This document shows, one piece after another, positions 10,203-60,829 of a DNA stretch of 64,000 bases (position 1 is the first letter of the stretch; each line of letters starts with the position of its first letter). The position numbers and the translations under genes are program-made. Origin of the DNA: Octopus vulgaris (taxonomy: Eukaryota); contig OX597823.1 in assembly GCA_951406725.2 (NCBI GenBank), positions 29,574,001 through 29,638,000 on the forward strand, given 5' to 3'. Under the pieces are notes generated by a model. That model worked only from the letters and a program-made list of their open reading frames with translations. It searched no databases and was not told where the DNA came from.

Positions 10203-10746
10203 TTAGGTTGTTCAGAAAGTTATGGGTGTTTTTAAAATGTTAAAAGAGATATACTTCATGAACCATAATTTTAGAAACTTCCAACTCTTCTGCAAGTTCT
10301 CTAGTTGTGATATTTGAATTTTCTTTGATTTTTGCCTTCAAAATATCTTTATCCAATTTAGAAGGTCTTCTGCTGCGACTGTCATCTTCCAAGCTAAACT
10401 CTCCACCGTTAAATTTCGCAAACCACCAACAAACAATTGATTCATCTAGTGCATCATCATCACCAGAATCTTCATAAATGTTTTTGCAAGTCATTGCAGC
10501 ATTTTTTTCCTTTTTAGAAACAGAAAAGCATTACAATGCTAATATGAAATTTTTGGTTTTCCATTTCAAATGTCAATAAAGAGTAACCAGAATGAAAGAT
10601 AAATCTATTTTTAGTCAGAAACAATGAAGAGATGCACTTTCACTTCAAGCAACACCAAAGTTTCAACTGTGCTACGTTTCAGGTGTGTTCAATGAAGCAT
10701 TACATGATTTAGCGTAAAAATGCTCAGAATTTTCCAGATAATCTAA
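10203..10746 (-). mobile_element. Internally deleted mariner DNA transposon with transposase pseudogene (N-terminal HTH only)
   Basis: Translation ..WWFAKFNGGEFSLEDDSRSRRPS..ENSNITTRELAEELEVS is typical of mariner transposase. Upstream ATG at 10564 is followed by a stop and a frameshift. Degenerate ~32-bp TIRs at 10203-10234 and 10715-10746, TA after the right end. Confidence 0.85.
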
Positions 10747-23054: not shown

Positions 23055-23218
23055 CTTTTGTCAAGATTTCCCCATCTATCAACCTCCCCTCTGCATCGTT
23101 CCACCCTTGTAACAAGGAAGAAGCAACAACAACAAGAACAACCAAAAGCAATTATAAAATAAAAGAAACGGTGATCATTAATTAATAAATAATAGTAATT
23201 TTTTTAGTTTGCACTTAC

Positions 23219-23447
23219 CGGTCTTTGAAAAGTAGAGTCATTTTTTCTGTAGAAATTCTGAATTTCCTCGACAAATTCCATTTAAGTCCTGCTACGGTTT
23301 CCTTTTCTGGTACATTTACCTCAATTTGACCTCCTGTAGCTGGACAAATATTTAATTTCATATATCCATTGCGTTTACCATTAATGCCATTTCGGTTGCT
23401 CTGGACGCCACCATTATTATTATTATTACTACTATTATTACGATTAC

Positions 23448-33500: not shown

Positions 33501-33534
33501 ATGATGACGGCCGAATTCAGACTGTGATGCTCTG

Positions 33535-35158
33535 GATTTATGTCAGGTTTTTGTCGATCTGACAAAAGCCTTTGATACTGTCAATAGAAATGCACTATGG
33601 AAAGTCCTCCAGAAACATGGGTGTCCTGAAAAGTTCCTTGCTTTGGTTAGGTCTTTTCATGAAGACATGAGGGGTAGGGTTAATGTTAGAGGGAAAATGT
33701 CGGAGCCTATCTCAATAAAAAAATGGAGTGAAACAGGGGGACATTCTGGCACCGACCCTATTTGCCATATATTTTGCGATGGTTTTCTGTATTGCATTCA
33801 GAAACTGCAGATATGGTGTTTACATCCATTATCGAAGCTCTGGCAGCATATTTAATATCAGGCACTTTGCTGCAAAAACAAAGGTATTTACCTCTATCAT
33901 AAGAGACCTTTTGTATGCAGATGATTGTGATCTATTAGCGCACACAGAGATATGCAACACATTTTGAATGCATTCTCTGATGCTTGCACTGCCTTAGGAT
34001 TGACAGTCAGTCTCAAGAAAGCTGTTGTCATGTACCAACCTGCCCCTGGCAAGCAGTATAATGAACCAAATATCTATGTGTATGGTAAACGACTTGATGT
34101 AGTTGATCAATTTGTCTACCTGGGAAGCATTGTTAATAGATATAGCAATTTGGATAATGAAATTCTATACAGAATTAGGAAAGCAAGTGATGCTTTCGGA
34201 AGGCTAGAAAGGCGCCCCTGGAGTCGGCGAGACATGCAGGAAGACAAAGATAAAGGTGTACAAGGCATGTCTGCTCTCTTCTCTTCTTTATACCTGCGAG
34301 ACGTGGGTCACATATCGATCCCACCTTAAACAACTGGAACATTTCCATCAGATGTGTCTCAGACGGATCTATGGCATTAAGTGGGAGGACCGCATCAGTG
34401 ATCTTGAAATATTGGAATGCTCTCCGTGTGAAAGTATAGAAGCTCTTGTGTTAAAGCAAAGGCTCAGATGGAGTGGTCATCTATCTGGTCAGGATGAAGG
34501 ATTCAAGGATGCCAAAACAACTCTTTTATGGAGAATTAGCTAAAGGAGACCGACCTCCACATAAACCAAAAAAGGGGTATGAGAACTTGCTGAAGGCTTC
34601 CTTAAGAGATGCTTGCATCTCTCCTGACACATGGGAGGTCATAGCTATTGACCGTAGCAGGTGGAGAAGGATTGTGCACGAGGGGACAGCTACTTTTGAG
34701 AGATCTCGAGTTGCGCATGAGAAAGTAAGGAGGGATGTCAGGAAAGGCATCGCTGTTGCACTTCCAGATGTTAAGGGTCTTCCTATGATGCTGACATGCA
34801 GTGTCTGTGCAAGACCCCTGCCTCAGTAAAGCTGGACTCAAGAGTTATCTTCATAGTCATAAAGCGAGACAGTTGATTGACAACCAGGCCACTGGTGGTG
34901 GTGTTACATACCATACTAATCATATCTGTCAGGCATGTGGAAGGGAGTGTAATTTGGCGAGAGGACTTAAACGACATGCAAAGGTATATGAAGCCCAGTT
35001 ACAACTACAGCCGGCTATTGCAGATAAAGGTTTTAGCTGCCAATTCTGTACAAGATATTGTAGATCTTTAGCTGGGCTAAAAGTCACATTCGATCACAGT
35101 ACCGATAACAGTTAAGTCTCGTGCAATGGCCATACTCGATAACGAGGGGGCAGCCATC
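33535..35158 (+). mobile_element. RTE-clade LINE, 5'-truncated, frameshifted RT plus C-terminal C2H2-like fingers and 3' UTR
   Basis: [63 protein letters not shown] motifs across frames, then three CxxC...H fingers. Ends at a (CATA)n tract. Confidence 0.92.
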
Positions 35159-40018: not shown

Positions 40019-41122
40019 ATTTATTTATACACACACACATATATATATGATATATATATATAAATATATATGTAGTGAAGGTGTGTGAACTGGTGGTTAT
40101 GGTATAGCTCTCGTGAAAGCGGACCAAATCGTTGGATCTCGATGTCTGAGATTAACCAGACTCGATAATTTCATAAGCTGCAAATGTGTGCTTTTATTCC
40201 CTTTCGTTGTCCACTGCAATCCAATCATCAACAATCTTTAGTCCCGAGAGTAACTGATCGATTTTCGTTCTATAAACGTTGTTCTGTCTGTATTAACAGT
40301 CCTTTTATGCTCTATTTAACATTAAAACCATCAAAGTTCCCTTCATCGTCAGAAGTTAAATAATCGAACATTAAAACAGGCCAACATTTACGCCAGACTC
40401 TCAAAATATTACCAAATTTTTACAGAAATTCATGCAGTTATAGATTTTAAGAACACGTCTTTAAGGGGTTGAATGTCAGGGATAGAAATAACACCGTTTT
40501 AATTAACAGCTTCATGAAATTATTTCTATATTAATGATTCTCTTGACCGTTGGTTACATGTGAGAAGTGACGCTGAGGGAAAAATCTCAGGACAAATAAT
40601 TTCACAAACTATAACTAACTTAGATTCTTGCAGGAATTTTTCTTACGGCTGTCAAGGATTAAGGAACATTTAGTGTCCAAAGTCTGACCTATATCATGTT
40701 ATCTAATCCCTTAGCTTTCAGATTATTCCGTCGAATGTAATGCTTATGTATCTATCTTTGTTTTGTATTCGTCATGCATTATCACGTGGCTTCGTGATTT
40801 CGATGGCGTGACTTTATTTTTAGAATGACATTATAGGCTAGGTGTGATAGGACAGGTCTGGACAGTTTGAACATAAAACATGTGTTTTTTGCCGAACCAC
40901 TAAGTTATGGGAATGTAAACAAACCAACACCAAAATTTACGTAAATATACGACAGGCTTCCACATAGTTTCCGTCTACCAAATTAAATCGCAAAGCATTG
41001 GTCGGCTCGATGCTGTATTAGAAGACACTTAGCCAGGGTGCCATGCAACAGGATTGAACTCGAAACCACTTATTTACATTACTTACATTTGACGGATATT
41101 TGTCCTCATCTTGTTTGTTGTT

Positions 41123-41168
41123 AACACAACGTTTCGGCTGATATACTCTCCAGCCTTCATCAGGTGTC
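41123..41168 (-). ncRNA. Minimal hammerhead ribozyme motif (mirror copy)
   Basis: Reverse-complement copy, with better stem I pairing (ACAC/GTGT). Confidence 0.65.
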
Positions 41169-41236
41169 TTGGGGAAATTTCGAACCTGGATTCTCATTGC
41201 TAAAGTATTTCGAACTCAAGTTCGAAATTTCCCCAA

Positions 41237-41282
41237 GACGCCTGATGAAGGCTGGAGGGTATATCAGCCGAAACGTTGTGTT
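41237..41282 (+). ncRNA. Minimal hammerhead ribozyme motif (Penelope-type)
   Basis: GACGC-CTGATGA-A-GGCTG[gagggtatat]CAGCC-GAAA-CG-TT-GTGTT: core boxes, stem II, palindromic AACGTT in place of stem III, short stem I. One extra A after the core and a GUU triplet. Confidence 0.65.
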
Positions 41283-43139
41283 AACAACAAACAAGATGAG
41301 GACAAATATCCGTTAAGTGTAAATAATGTACATAATTCCTCATCTCTTAAATATAGAACTGCCGAAACAACTTGGTTACAAAGCGAACCAGCTAACTTCA
41401 CAGACATCTTATTCTGTCGTGGATCTTTAATCTGGTCGACTTACCGCCCAGGAAAACAACTGAGGTCTCGCAGTTCATTCTGTTTTCAAAATCTTTAACT
41501 CGAGTTAAAATTCCTAGGAACAGCTATAGTTTCTGGTCACAGAAGAAGAAAAGAAAAGAATCCTTGTCTAATATTTTTTCTAAATTATGGCGGCGAGCTG
41601 GCAGAAACGTTAGCACGCCGGGCAAAATGCTTATAAGGTATTTCGTCAGTCTTTATGCTCTGAGTTCAAATTCCGCCGAGATCGACTTTGCCTTTCATCT
41701 TTTCGGGGTTGATAAATTAAGTACCAGTTGCATACTGGAGTCGATTTAATCGACTGGCCCCCTCCCAAAAATGTCAGTCCATGTGCCTAGAGTAGAAAAG
41801 AATAAATTAGATCTGACATGCCGGGCGAAATGCTTTGCGGTATTTCGTCTGTGTGAGTTGGAATTGTATTGTTGCCGAAGTGCATCTGTATAGTAAGTGT
41901 AGATTCTGTTAACTGTTTCGGTTTTGTTGCCTGTTTTATTTGCTGTTAAAATTTGTATAATAGATTTTGTTCGAAAACTATTGTGTGTTTTCCCCTGTAG
42001 GGGAAACACTTATTGCTGGCAGGATGCCAAAAAGTGTGTATTCATCTGACGAGGATTCGACAGATTTAGAGGCCAGAAAAGTGGAAAGAGTATTGTTGGA
42101 AGATGTGTCGGATTCGTCTGAGAGCGAATTCCCACCACTGTCGAGGACTGACGTTGCAAGGTAGAGTGTCGAAGTGAAGACTTCAATCGGGGGGGGGTCG
42201 ATTAAATAAGTACCAGTTACGAACTGGGGTCGATGTAATCGACTTAATCCCGTTATCTGTCCTTGTTTGTCCCCTCTATGTTTAGTCCCTGTGGGCAATA
42301 AAGAAGTAAATATTTTCTTTAAATTTCTACATTTTAATTCATGCTATAAATTTTCTTTCTCCCGTTTTGTTGCTGTCGTTGTTGTTGTTGTTGTTGTCGT
42401 CGTCGTCAGAACTGCAGTGAAATCTAAAAGCTTTTGTTTTGAGTTCGTTATGTAGAAAGAAGCCGACGTCCTTTTGTTATATTCTGTCATTTACAGACGT
42501 CTACTTACGCCTCGTGCCATTTTTCTTAGTGGTGACTGGATCATCACTAAATGTTAAAAATTGTTTTTCTTTGTTCATCCCAACAAACTTTAGTCATCCA
42601 AATGGACTATAGGACAAAGAATAGAATGTTTCTAATACAGCGTTAGGTGATTTACATGTTGTCTGCGTTTTGTTCACATTATAAATGACAGACGTGGATG
42701 AGCACAAAGCAATACGTTATAGGCAGTTTTCTTTACAACAGTTACCAAACGTGTCGCTGGCAAAAGATTTTTAGAAATACATGCATTTACAAGATTGATG
42801 TAAGACAGAAAAACCGAACAGAACTGCCAACGGAAATCGAATTCATATAACAATAACATTAATATAATTCCTTCTCCGACTTGTAACTTCACTATTCCCA
42901 CTATCCACCCTTAACTGTGTTGTCTTTCGCTAGTTCTAATCTCTTGCGTTAAAGCTCAGTCTATCAATGACAGCAACCCCAGGACGTATATTCCCTTCAT
43001 CAAGAATTGCTTTATAAATCAATTTATAAACATATTCGAACATTTTAGAAACATGAAAATTTGCCACAAGCCACTTTGAATACATCTGGGTTTTGGAAAA
43101 AACAAGATCTACGACGTTAATAGTTCAATGATTGGTCTT

Positions 43140-43722
43140 TATCATCCACCCTGAAAGGATGAAAGGCAAAGTCAACCTCGGAGGAATTTGAACTCATAAC
43201 GTAAAGACAGACGAAATACCTATTTCTTTACTACCTACAAGGGGCTAAACACAGAGGGAACAAACAAGGATATACAAACGGATTAAGTCGATTATATCGA
43301 CCTCAGTGCGTAAATGGTACTTATTTAATCGACCCCGAAAGGATGAAAGGCAAAGTCAACCTCGGCGGGATTTGAACTCAGAACGTAATGGCAGACAAAA
43401 TACCTATTTCTTTACTACCCACAAGGGGCTAAACACAGAGGGAACAAACAAGGACAGACAAACGGATTAAGTCGATTATATCGACCCCAGTGCGTAACTG
43501 GTACTTATTTAATCGACCCCGAAAGGATGAAAGGCAAAGTCGACCTCGGCGGAATTTGAACTCAGAACGTAATGGTAGACGAAATACCTATTTCTTTACT
43601 ACCCACAAGGGGCCAAACACAGAGAGGACAAACAAGGACCGACAAACGGATTAAGTCGTTTACATCGACCCCAGTGCGTAACTGGTACTTATTTAATCGA
43701 CCCCGAAAGGATAAAAGGCAAA
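43140..43722 (-). repeat. Tandem array of ~184-bp SINE B units (about 3)
   Basis: Recurring CAGACGAAATACCTATTTCTTTACTACC junction. Confidence 0.85.
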
Positions 43723-45745: not shown

Positions 45746-46550
45746 GTAGCGGCAGACGAAATACCTATTTCTTTACTACCCACAAGGGGCTAAACACAGA
45801 GAGGACAAACAAGGACATACAAACGGATTAAGTCGATTATATCGACCCCAGTGCGCAACTGGTACTTAATTTATCGACCCTGAAAGGATGAAAGGCAAAG
45901 TCGACCTCGGCGGAATTTGAACTCTGAACGTAGCGGCAGACGAAATACCTATTTCTTTACTACCCACAAGGGGCTAAACATAGAGAGGACAAACAAGGAC
46001 AGACAAATGGATTAAGCCGATTATATCAACCCCAGTGCGCAACTGGTACTTAATTTATCGACCCTGAAAGGATGAAAGGCAAAGTCGACCTCGGCGGAAT
46101 TTGAACTCTGAACGTAACGGCAGACGAAATATTTATTTCTTTACTACCCAGAAGGGGCTAAACATAGAGACGACAAACAAGGACATACAAATAGATTAAG
46201 TCGATTATATCGACCCCAGTGCGTAACTGGTACTTATTTAATTGACCCCGAAATGATGAAAGGCAAAGTCGACCTCGGCGGAATTTGAACTCGGAACGTA
46301 ACGGCAGACGAAATATCTATTTCTTTACTACCCAGAAGGGGCTAAACATAGAGACGACAAACAAGGACATACAAATAGATTAAGTCGATTATATCGACCC
46401 TAGTGCGTAACTGGTACTTATTTAATTGACCCCGAAATGATGAAAGGCAAAGTCGACCTCGGCGGAATTTGAACTCAGAACGTAACGGCAGACGACATAC
46501 CGCTAAGCATCTCGCTTGACGTGCCAACGATTCTGCCAGCTCGCCGCCTT
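45746..46550 (-). repeat. Tandem array of 184-bp SINE B units (4 units plus one head)
   Basis: Same landmark at 45746, 45930, 46114, 46298, 46482. Confidence 0.9.
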
Positions 46551-46907
46551 AGTATAATGTAATATAGCGCTTATGCAATTGACTCAAGATACTACAGTAC
46601 GCCCTAAACAACAACGTGATCAGCGGCGGCAGCAACAGCAGCAGCAACAACACCACCAGCAGCAGTAGCAGCAACTCATACAATTCCTGTTGTACAGAAT
46701 TGATACTCAATAACATAGCACAACCCACACAATCCATTCACTACCGAACTAAATTTATTGGCTTTAAATTCTGGCACAAAGCCAACAGTTTCGGGTGCGG
46801 TGAGTAAGCAAGTCGATTAAGCCGATCCCAGTGCTCAACTGCTACTTATTTTATCGACCCCGAATTGATGAAAGGCAAAGTCAACCCCGGCGACATTTGA
46901 GCTCAGG

Positions 46908-47330
46908 ACGAAATGTTTAGCGGTATTTCGTCTGCCGCTACGTTCTGAGTTCAAATTCAGCCGAGGTCGACTTTGCCTTTCATCCTTTCGGGGTCGATTA
47001 AATAAGTACCATTTACGCACTGGGGTCGATATAATCGACTTAATCCGTTTGTCTGTCCTTGTTTGTCCTCTCTGTGTCTAGCTCCTTGTGGGTAGTAAAG
47101 AAATAGGTATTTCGTCTGCCGCTACGTTCTGATTTTAAATTCCGCCGAGGTCGACTTTGCCTGTCATCCTTTGGGGGTCGATTAAATAAGTACCAGTTAC
47201 GCACTGGGGTCGATATAATCGACTTAATCCGTTTGTCTGTCCTTGTTTGCCCTCTCTGTGTTTAGCCTCTTGTGGGTAGTAAAGAAATAGAAATAGGTAT
47301 TTCGTCTGCCGCTACGTTCTGAGTTCAAAT
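46908..47330 (+). repeat. Tandem array of SINE B units (about 2.3), inverted to the 45.7-46.5 kb array
   Basis: Same unit and junction on the + strand. Confidence 0.85.
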
Positions 47331-59280: not shown

Positions 59281-59707
59281 ACATCACAATCAAGGAACGG
59301 CCATAATAGGCCATTCACCCACTAGAAATAACAGCCAAAGCTTCAACCGCAAAATAACATTAATTCCGCAAACCAGGAGAAAATTAAAAAAACATTTACC
59401 CTGTAATTTCTTATACGGTGCACCGTTTCATCTATTGTTTAATGGTAAACTAACCTGATTAAATTAAATCAAGTCAATCTTCCATAGGCCCTTAGATTCG
59501 TCAGTAAGAAATAGCCAGATCGGAACAGATATTTTCACGAGGCACTTCTGTCCCTGCCTCGGCAATATCTGACCTAAAATTTTCAAATCAACGCACTCGC
59601 GCCAAATTTATCGGTAGCAAATAAATATAAGCCGCCGATTCCATTACGGAATCAATTTATTTCTAGTGGGTGAATGGCCTATTATGGCCGTTCCTTGATT
59701 GTGATGT
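59281..59707. repeat. Perfect 51-bp inverted repeat with 325-bp spacer (MITE/foldback-like)
   Basis: 59281-59331 is the reverse complement of 59657-59707. Confidence 0.8.
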
Positions 59708-59808
59708 TGAACTTATAAATGGTCTATGACTATTTAATTTTTTCCCACTAGGCCGCTGGTGGCAAAAAAATTCTACAAAATTTTTTTTGCCACCCTATAT
59801 TGATTAAT

Positions 59809-59844
<36 letters not shown>

Positions 59845-60196: not shown

Positions 60197-60262
<66 letters not shown>

Positions 60263-60472
60263 GATACAGGATAAAAAATTTTTCGGGAAAAAAAATTTAT
60301 CAATGGCCAGCATATCAAAAAATGCCTTTAAAGGTAAAATTTATACATAATTTACAAGATAAGGGCAGAAGAAAAATTCTAATGCCAGATATGCCGAAAC
60401 AAAAAATTGTCGATAACCATTAAATTTATGCGTCTCGAAACAAACCGATAGAAATCTCTAAAAATTCGTTAT

Positions 60473-60531
60473 TACCGTATTGGTCCAATTTCGGGGTTAA
60501 TTCACAAGAAATTTTCCCCTCTTCAGCGGCA
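60473..60531 (-). ncRNA. Type I hammerhead ribozyme motif (mirror copy, left arm)
   Basis: Reverse complement of 60619-60677. Confidence 0.8.
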
Positions 60532-60618
60532 CATACGCGAGATATATATGAAATACTTATTCATACCCATTCATATTCCATGGGTATGAATAAGTATTTC
60601 ATTTATATCTCGCGTATG

Positions 60619-60677
60619 TGCCGCTGAAGAGGGGAAAATTTCTTGTGAATTAACCCCGAAATTGGACCAATACGGTA
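60619..60677 (+). ncRNA. Type I hammerhead ribozyme motif (Penelope-like, right arm of foldback)
   Basis: Stem I TGCCG/CGGTA, core CTGAAGA (60624-60630), stem II GGGG...CCCC, GAAA (60658-60661), stem III ATTG-GAC-CAAT, cleavage triplet AUA ending at 60672. Confidence 0.8.
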
Positions 60678-60829
60678 ATAACGAATTTTTTAGAGATTTC
60701 TATCGGTTTGTTTCGAGACGCATAAATTTAATGGTTATCGACAAATTTTTGTTTCGGCGTATCTGGCATTAGAATTTTTCTTCTGCCCTTATCTTGTATA
60801 TATATACATATATATATATATATGTATAG

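What the first reader, a model, noticed from the sequence alone, without database searches (positions are those of the whole stretch)
60353..60798. ~218-bp-arm foldback carrying two outward-facing hammerhead ribozymes
Seen: near-perfect palindrome with a 9-nt loop. Each arm holds a complete type I hammerhead (CTGAAGA, GGGG/CCCC stem II, GAAA, ATTG-GAC-CAAT stem III, AUA site, TGCCG/CGGTA stem I). Known: Penelope-like elements carry small hammerheads in their pseudo-LTRs and often have inverted termini. Inference: this is a protein-less PLE derivative inserted in (TA)n. On either strand the antisense arm is transcribed first, so hairpin formation should compete with ribozyme folding and give a long dsRNA (ADAR/Dicer substrate). 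Stem III is quasi-palindromic, so monomer or dimer cleavage is possible.
Basis: partly seen in the sequence, partly recalled or inferred. Interest (0 to 1): 0.8.

Follow-up and report, generated by a model that had tools for sequence, protein, structure and literature searches.

The report
Head-to-head pair of hammerhead retroelement copies
Two nearly identical copies of a short, very abundant animal repeat sit head to head between TA microsatellites, each carrying a predicted self-cutting (hammerhead) RNA motif; this is likely the ordinary insertion footprint of a Penelope-like retrotransposon, a pattern already described in other animals and seen twice more in the same 64 kb.

Summary
Observation confirmed. 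Arms 60353-60570 and 60580-60798 differ at 4 places around a 9-nt loop, and each holds a full type I hammerhead motif facing outward. Contigs of four public runs show a multi-copy family: 74 to 2696 contigs laid per run, other copies ending in (TA)n, and three inversion junctions at other positions. Two unrelated elements in this window (59281-~59809 and ~41072-41361) have the same build of inverted copy, hammerhead and one-sided tail. Head-to-head inverted copies with a one-sided tail, and twin opposite-strand hammerheads, are described for Penelope-like elements. Best reading: a non-coding Penelope-type repeat whose foldback is a by-product of integration, likely two cDNAs primed from both ends of one cut. 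Not shown: cleavage, transcription, a link to an RT/GIY-YIG ORF, or selection on the core (0 of 20 variant sites fall in it, P=0.41). Rfam's hammerhead models do not score it. Read-through RNA is predicted to bury the ribozyme (96 kcal/mol penalty). Single-arm transcripts would be free of the hairpin and are predicted to fold as a double hammerhead. New member of a known kind; interest 0.35.

The parts
60200..60259 (.). (TA)n microsatellite, left flank; likely target site
   Evidence: sequence
60261..60352 (-). 92-nt 3' extension (tail) present on the left copy only; part of the repeat family
   Evidence: covered by family contigs in all 4 runs, with loose ends beyond it running into (TA)n
60353..60570 (-). 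left arm: copy of the repeat unit reading outward (leftward)
60473..60531 (-). type I hammerhead motif, left copy; C3 = 60526, predicted cleavage after A60478
60571..60575 (+). 5-nt junction filler, identical to 60561-60565 (likely templated during end joining)
   Evidence: inference
60576..60798 (+). right arm: second copy reading outward (rightward), no tail; its first 4 nt match the upstream letters seen in other family copies
   Evidence: (X10 loose end behind 60570)
60582..60610 (+). predicted 10-bp hairpin at the 5' end of the unit (-5.6 kcal/mol)
60619..60677 (+). type I hammerhead motif, right copy; C3 = 60624, predicted cleavage after A60672; palindromic stem III 60661-60671
60799..60826 (.). 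(TA)n-rich right flank, directly joined to the right arm
59281..59809 (-). second, unrelated element of the same build: one hammerhead (C3 59504, H17 59414, GUA site), 51-bp perfect inverted copy of its 3' end (59281-59331 / 59657-59707), ~100-nt one-sided tail, (TA)n on both sides
41072..41361 (.). third, unrelated element: foldback with two outward minimal hammerheads (C3 41163 on -, 41242 on +), 26-nt one-sided tail, inside a SINE-like repeat, probable ~11-bp target duplication

Best explanation
This is a head-to-head pair of copies of a short (~315-nt), non-coding, multi-copy repeat that carries a hammerhead motif, and the pair was likely laid down in one insertion event by the reverse transcriptase and endonuclease of a Penelope-like retrotransposon acting in trans. 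Proposed steps: (1) the enzyme cuts both strands of a (TA)n tract (inferred from in vitro work on an anole PLE). (2) Each DNA end primes a cDNA on uncut RNA of the repeat, one from the far 3' end, which gives the tail-bearing left copy, and one from an AU-rich point 92 nt further in, which gives the tail-less right copy (inferred). (3) Both cDNAs run to the RNA's 5' end, 93-97 nt upstream of the hammerhead cleavage site, and are joined there with a 5-nt templated filler (geometry shown, process inferred). The foldback would thus be a by-product of integration, not a selected RNA switch. The hammerhead is an inherited part of the family and is predicted to work best as a dimer through its palindromic stem III. 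In read-through RNA of this locus it is predicted to be locked in a ~220-bp duplex and silent.
For: Anatomy: both copies face outward, only one has a tail, and both end in (TA)n. Published PLE insertions have an adjacent inverted copy, a tail on one end, head-to-head polarity and a palindrome at the junction (PMC8557442 passages; PMC3846280 passages and Discussion). Twin minimal hammerheads ~100-700 bp apart on opposite strands were reported in Schistosoma and ascribed to truncated PLEs (PMC4209133). An anole PLE protein cleaves and extends both strands, prefers AT-rich DNA, starts reverse transcription at two internal sites that bound the tail, and uses uncleaved RNA (PMC11167929 parts 1-2 of 4). 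Family data (4 of the 24 listed runs laid on 60261-60600): 2696, 1553, 2037 and 74 contigs laid; loose ends at 60268-60289 run into (TA)n in all 4 runs; three single contigs show other inversion junctions (60433/60568, 60371/60528, 60486 to 60576); 6 of the 32 listed pieces have their contig end exactly at 60569-60570, suggesting a recurrent 5' boundary. Both arms share the same minority letters at 60388, 60505 and 60532, as expected from one source lineage. Common variants spare the fold: loop II, loop III (+1 nt), a double change in stem I that keeps both pairs, and a majority letter at 60532 that lengthens helix I to 6 bp. The unconstrained homodimer MFE is the double hammerhead. Two unrelated elements in the window repeat the same build.
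Against: No RT/GIY-YIG ORF is linked. None of 295 frames scanned (the 294 low-repeat frames of 496 of 55 aa or more, plus 1) hit GIY-YIG, and the one RT hit (33508-33852) lies 27 kb away; no host genome is held. Rfam hammerhead models do not score this motif. Core conservation is not significant: 0 of 20 variant sites in 13 core positions, P=0.41; one variant (60517, 4-9% of depth) breaks a stem II pair with no partner change listed, and no two-sided compensatory change was seen. The dimer energy gain (-10.5 kcal/mol) is matched by 40 of 200 shuffles. The monomer adopts the hammerhead fold in only ~5% of the ensemble, and 0.01% in the full right arm. The tail (92 nt) is about three times the 30-40 bp described. 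60353 is not among the listed loose-end positions (302 rows not shown), so a recurrent inner priming site is not shown. Two of the 4 arm differences coincide with family-variable sites (60392, the T run at 60459), which could mean two template molecules or mutation hot spots. One of the three other junctions has only 20 letters on its short side. Arkhipova et al. explain head-to-head repeats by self-priming instead.
Confidence: 0.72

Rival explanations
1. Same kind of element, but the inversion was made by self-priming: one cDNA (or an antisense RNA) folds back at its 5' hairpin and copies itself, stopping 92 nt short.
For: Proposed for head-to-head PLE repeats with junction palindromes (PMC3846280 Discussion). 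All three elements in this window have a hairpin at or next to the junction (-5.6, -7.9, -8.6 kcal/mol). The arms share minority alleles.
Against: The tail-less arm begins with 4 nt of family upstream sequence (60576-60579) that the tail-bearing arm lacks, and the 5-nt filler is not self-complementary. A copy of the left arm could not supply those 4 nt unless they were trimmed afterwards. A 4-nt match is thin evidence.
Confidence: 0.3
2. The unit is a non-LTR retrozyme monomer: active loci are tandem arrays whose hammerheads cut out linear and circular RNAs, and this pair is an inverted offspring made by PLE proteins. This overlaps with the best explanation and differs in the RNA template.
For: Size (~315 nt), GC 33% and a near-canonical helix I 5-6 bp / helix II 4 bp motif without the extra base after A9 fit retrozymes (PMC7229834 passages; PMC4209133). 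A 2026 preprint derives retrozymes from PLE pLTRs (part 1 of 5; passages). Three X10 contigs continue upstream of 60570 into a further sequence, so the full unit may be longer.
Against: No tandem copy at this locus. Copies start 93-97 nt upstream of the cleavage site at what looks like a recurrent point, which fits an uncut linear RNA better than a cut monomer.
Confidence: 0.2
3. A MITE or foldback DNA transposon with long terminal inverted repeats that happens to carry a captured hammerhead and targets TA.
For: Long near-perfect inverted repeats, TA flanks, no ORF, high copy number.
Against: The ends are not symmetric (92-nt tail on one side). Family contigs join across different inversion points. 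Unrelated hammerhead families in the window share the asymmetric build.
Confidence: 0.05
4. An assembly or library artefact (fold-back chimera), or a later local inverted duplication of a single copy.
For: Palindromes are a known failure mode of assembly (general knowledge); arms are 98% identical.
Against: The arms differ at 4 places, two of them real family variants. The flanks are not mirrored. The right arm has 5' family letters absent from the left, and it stops cleanly at (TA)n.
Confidence: 0.05
5. A host-exapted hairpin RNA gene (miRNA or endo-siRNA source, ADAR substrate) or a ribozyme on/off switch.
For: Predicted -373 kcal/mol hairpin. PLE copies yield small RNAs in a rotifer.
Against: The Rfam miRNA hits are all below their gathering scores and reflect hairpin shape only. 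The young (1.8% arm divergence), multi-copy, structurally variable family argues for a by-product.
Confidence: 0.04

Closest known systems
Insertions of endonuclease-bearing Penelope-like elements with an adjacent inverted pLTR and one-sided tail (Penelope/Poseidon, Neptune, Nematis, Hydra; PMC3846280, PMC8557442)
   Same: Head-to-head inverted copy, tail on one end only, hairpin at the 5' end, type I hammerhead in the repeat, AT-rich or microsatellite target, arm length of ~200 bp.
   Different: No ORF between or beside the arms; both arms are nearly full length at the 5' end; the tail is 92 nt rather than 30-40; no coding partner identified.
Dual opposite-strand minimal hammerheads of truncated Schistosoma PLEs (PMC4209133)
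   Same: Two hammerheads 100-700 bp apart on opposite strands (here the two C3 positions are 98 nt apart); palindromic stem III; likely dimer-dependent.
   Different: The motif here is not minimal: stem III has 4-5 bp, helix II has 4 bp with a 19-nt loop, and there is no extra base after A9. The 41.1-kb element in the window is the true minimal type.
Non-LTR retrozymes of animals (PMC7229834; bioRxiv 10.64898/2026.07.22.740005)
   Same: Short, non-coding, low-GC, multi-copy unit with a near-canonical type I hammerhead, thought to be moved by PLE proteins.
   Different: Defined by head-to-tail tandems and circular RNAs; here the copies are inverted, not tandem, and no RNA was examined.

Membership tests
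Type I hammerhead ribozyme | Conserved core (C3-A9, G12-A15.1, U16.1, H17) at a three-stem junction with open helix I | tested here: met
   5 motifs in the window against 0.02 in shuffles
Type I hammerhead ribozyme | Scores against Rfam Hammerhead_1 (RF00163) | tested here: not met
   no match at gathering or at E up to 10; the 59.4-kb motif gets 18.5 bits, below the 34-bit cut-off
Type I hammerhead ribozyme | Selection on core and covariation in stems among copies | tested here: inconclusive
   0 of 20 variant sites in 13 core positions, P=0.41; pair-keeping one-sided changes in stem I; one pair-breaking variant in stem II
Type I hammerhead ribozyme | Self-cleavage 3' of H17 | not testable with these tools
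   needs an in vitro assay
Penelope-like element (autonomous, EN+) | ORF with telomerase-like RT and GIY-YIG endonuclease | tested here: not met
   no ORF in the element; no GIY-YIG hit in 295 frames of the window. The locus is therefore not an autonomous PLE
PLE-mobilised non-autonomous insertion | Adjacent inverted copy in head-to-head polarity | tested here: met
   other junctions in family contigs
PLE-mobilised non-autonomous insertion | Tail on one end only | tested here: met
   60261-60352, longer (92 nt) than the 30-40 bp described
PLE-mobilised non-autonomous insertion | Sequence shared with the pLTR or 3' end of an autonomous PLE in the same genome | not testable with these tools
   no host genome held; collection scans empty
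PLE-mobilised non-autonomous insertion | AT-rich or microsatellite target; target duplication when visible | tested here: inconclusive
   (TA)n on both sides and in other copies; a duplication cannot be read inside (TA)n
Non-LTR retrozyme | Two or more head-to-tail units each with a hammerhead | tested here: not met
   at this locus the two units are inverted; arrays elsewhere in the genome could not be examined
Non-LTR retrozyme | Abundant linear and circular RNA monomers | not testable with these tools
   only contigs were available
MITE | Symmetric terminal inverted repeats and uniform structure among copies | tested here: not met
   one-sided tail; different inversion junctions among family contigs

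The most novel reading that the evidence does not exclude
A SINE-like class of hammerhead-bearing Penelope parasites dominates this (likely cephalopod) genome: several unrelated families with a fixed 5' start upstream of the ribozyme and unusually long 90-100-nt tails, inserted by priming from both ends of one cut. The head-to-head pair then works as a two-state unit. Divergent transcripts from the centre pair through the palindromic stem III and cleave as a trans dimer without any tandem copy, while read-through transcripts silence both ribozymes and feed long dsRNA to ADAR or Dicer. Thousands of such pairs would give a genome-wide record of the PLE insertion mechanism.
Probability: 0.2. Interest if true: 0.62.

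Novelty: new member of a known kind. Interest (0 to 1): 0.35.

Why it matters
The structure itself is ordinary for Penelope-type elements. Its use is as test material. How PLEs make inverted copies and one-sided tails is unsettled (self-priming versus priming from both target ends), and what the hammerhead does is called unclear in PMC8557442. A multi-copy family with short, young, fully readable junctions lets these models be compared by counting junction types in one assembly. The copies keep 93-97 nt upstream of the cleavage site, which agrees with the in vitro finding that uncut RNA is the template. If the host is an octopus (recalled impression, no call), three such elements in 64 kb suggest many long hairpins in an animal known for heavy RNA editing (recalled). 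My searches of the held library listed no paper devoted to hammerheads of cephalopod repeats. Repbase, Dfam and the supplements of PMC4209133 and PMC8557442 were not consulted and may already hold these families.

Tried and rejected
No whole genome is held, so copy number, tandem arrays and an autonomous partner could not be looked up. Exact-pattern scans for this hammerhead found 0 loci in metagenome contigs and 0 in viral contigs; a scan for the 41.1-kb motif found 0 in metagenome contigs. No second copy of the unit, and none of the 59.3-kb element, in the window; the two share no significant similarity. No RNA holder was listed among 24 runs; this says nothing about expression. No contig bridged this locus's own junction: the low cover beyond 60572 in X1 and X4 is best explained by contigs starting at 60576 (arithmetic), and X3 and X10 have none. 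A hole proves nothing, so the junction is neither confirmed nor contradicted by reads. Summed depths are not copy numbers and were not used as such. The few extra A>G / T>C places in X10 (kind RNA only guessed) come largely from single contigs and have no matched DNA, so they were rejected as evidence of editing. Rfam miRNA hits were rejected as hairpin-shape matches below gathering. The dimer energy gain alone was rejected as evidence for this element (40 of 200 shuffles as good; 0 of 200 for the 59.4-kb motif). No ORF start running into the tail was found. The RT fragment at 33.5 kb was not pursued; by recall it looks like a LINE. A search for 'Penelope' + 'twin priming' + 'inverted' listed 2 papers, neither on PLE insertion by title or abstract start (not read). 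Earlier-findings look-ups by sequence, place and several word sets were empty.

Full report
Observation. The palindrome is real in the sequence: arms 60353-60570 and 60580-60798, 9-nt loop, 3 substitutions and one 1-base indel. My descriptor finds 5 such motifs in the 64 kb against a mean of 0.02 in 100 block-wise dinucleotide shuffles (loosened once after seeing a third element, the stricter version found 3). Rfam does not recognise the motif, and the monomer's lowest-energy fold is a different one, with the hammerhead 1 kcal/mol above it and about 5% of the ensemble. Ribozyme activity is therefore predicted from the motif, not shown.

True extent. Left of the left arm lies a 92-nt stretch (about 60261-60352) before the (TA)n begins; the right arm runs straight into (TA)n. 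Contigs of public runs show that this stretch belongs to the same repeat and that other copies also end in (TA)n beyond it. The insertion is thus about 60261-60798: two copies head to head, with a tail on one. At the centre, three contigs of run X10 continue upstream of the unit with letters whose first four match 60576-60579, so the right copy likely starts at 60576. The remaining five bases (60571-60575) repeat 60561-60565 and look like templated filler.

Family. No genome is held. A run search listed 24 runs, 20 holding the stretch or part of it, from 9 studies and 4 organism labels. I laid 4 of them on 60261-60600: 2696, 1553, 2037 and 74 contigs, mostly 90-99% alike, which shows a multi-copy family; depths are not copy numbers. 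Three single contigs show inversion junctions at other positions (60433/60568, 60371/60528, 60486 to 60576; the last has only 20 letters on its short side). Six of 32 listed pieces have their contig end exactly at 60569-60570 (6364 pieces not shown). I read this as a recurrent 5' boundary 93-97 nt upstream of the cleavage site, an inference from how such contigs break. Among 20 substitution sites at 3% or more in a DNA-like run, none falls in the 13 core positions, but chance gives that with P=0.41. Variants sit in loops II and III, a double change in stem I keeps both pairs, the majority letter at 60532 extends helix I to 6 bp, and one minor variant breaks a stem II pair. Both arms carry the same minority letters at 60388, 60505 and 60532.

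Neighbours. Two unrelated elements in the window share the build. At 59281-~59809 one hammerhead on the - strand (8-bp stem I, perfect palindromic stem III, GUA site; weak Rfam Hammerhead_1 match, 18.5 bits, E 0.036) has a 51-bp perfect inverted copy of its 3' end, a ~100-nt one-sided tail and (TA)n on both sides. At about 41072-41361 a foldback with two outward minimal hammerheads and a 26-nt one-sided tail sits in a SINE-like repeat with a probable ~11-bp target duplication, read by eye. All 5 motifs found lie in such inverted structures. No GIY-YIG domain was found in 295 reading frames scanned. The host looks like an octopus from its microsatellites and SINEs; this is recalled and rests on no call. 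Penelope elements are listed as expanded in coleoids (PMC8967140 passages).

Mechanism. Published PLE insertions often carry an adjacent inverted 5'-truncated copy and a 30-40-bp tail at one end (PMC8557442 passages). They are head to head with junction palindromes (PMC3846280 passages and Discussion), and twin opposite-strand hammerheads 100-700 bp apart were noted in Schistosoma (PMC4209133 parts 1-2 of 4). A purified anole PLE protein cuts and extends both strands of AT-rich DNA, starts at two internal RNA sites that bound the tail, and uses uncut RNA; its hammerhead cleaves only with protein present (PMC11167929 parts 1-2 of 4). I therefore think it most likely that both ends of one cut in (TA)n primed cDNA on uncut RNA of this repeat, one at the far end and one at an AU-rich point 92 nt further in (the family sequence there continues AT-rich), and that the two cDNAs were joined at their 5' ends. 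The geometry is shown; the steps are inferred. Self-priming is the published alternative and is not excluded. The 4 extra 5' bases on the tail-less arm favour two cDNAs, weakly.

RNA consequences (predictions). That applies only to read-through RNA: transcripts starting at each copy's own 5' end would lack the antisense arm. For two such RNAs the unconstrained co-fold is the double hammerhead joined through stem III, although the energy gain alone is unremarkable (40 of 200 shuffles). Nothing here shows that the locus is transcribed.

Comparison and verdict. It works like a PLE-made insertion and meets the structural tests (inverted head-to-head copy, one-sided tail, hammerhead motif). It is not an autonomous PLE (no ORF), its link to one is untested, and at this locus it fails the tandem test for a retrozyme and the symmetry test for a MITE. 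Differences from the described cases are the long tail, the near-canonical motif with a 4-5-bp palindromic stem III, and two nearly full-length arms. Searches of the held library listed no paper devoted to these cephalopod-like families, but repeat databases and supplements were not consulted. An earlier agent report of a similar hammerhead foldback in a shark is an unchecked lead that points to the pattern being common. New member of a known kind; interest 0.35.

Noticed in passing
window 59281-~59809: Unrelated element with a strong type I hammerhead motif on the - strand (8-bp stem I, a long insert in loop II that folds into its own hairpin, perfect palindromic stem III, GUA site), a 51-bp perfect inverted copy of its 3' end and a ~100-nt one-sided tail, between (TA)n tracts. 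Its homodimer folds as a double hammerhead with a gain no shuffle reached (0 of 200). A better candidate for a cleavage assay than the finding itself.
   Followed up: partly
window ~41072-41361: Foldback with two outward minimal hammerheads (extra base after A9, ACGU stem III), 26-nt one-sided tail, junction hairpin, inserted in a SINE-like repeat with a probable ~11-bp target duplication (41061-41071 / 41363-41373, 10 of 11 alike, by eye).
   Followed up: partly
window 43140-43700 and 45746-47330: Tandem arrays of a ~170-185-bp SINE-like unit; at 45746-47330 a direct array faces an inverted array. No hammerhead motif by my scan.
   Followed up: no
window 23218-23430 (-): Exon-like frame with a ubiquitin-like domain; weak matches to ubiquitin and midnolin (Pfam E 2e-4; PDB E 1.5e-3 for midnolin). 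If this is the gene's 5' part, the foldback lies ~37 kb upstream on the same strand.
   Followed up: partly
window 33508-34829 (+): Broken reverse transcriptase fragment (RVT_1 E 1e-4), by recall LINE-like rather than Penelope-like.
   Followed up: no
window 10243-10530 (-): Helix-turn-helix fragment with weak matches including the Mos1 transposase HTH; likely a mariner remnant.
   Followed up: no
run X10, loose ends behind window 60570 and 60332: Three contigs continue upstream of the unit into a sequence not in the stretch laid, and one leaves the tail into 255 other letters; a possible route to longer or autonomous family members.
   Followed up: no
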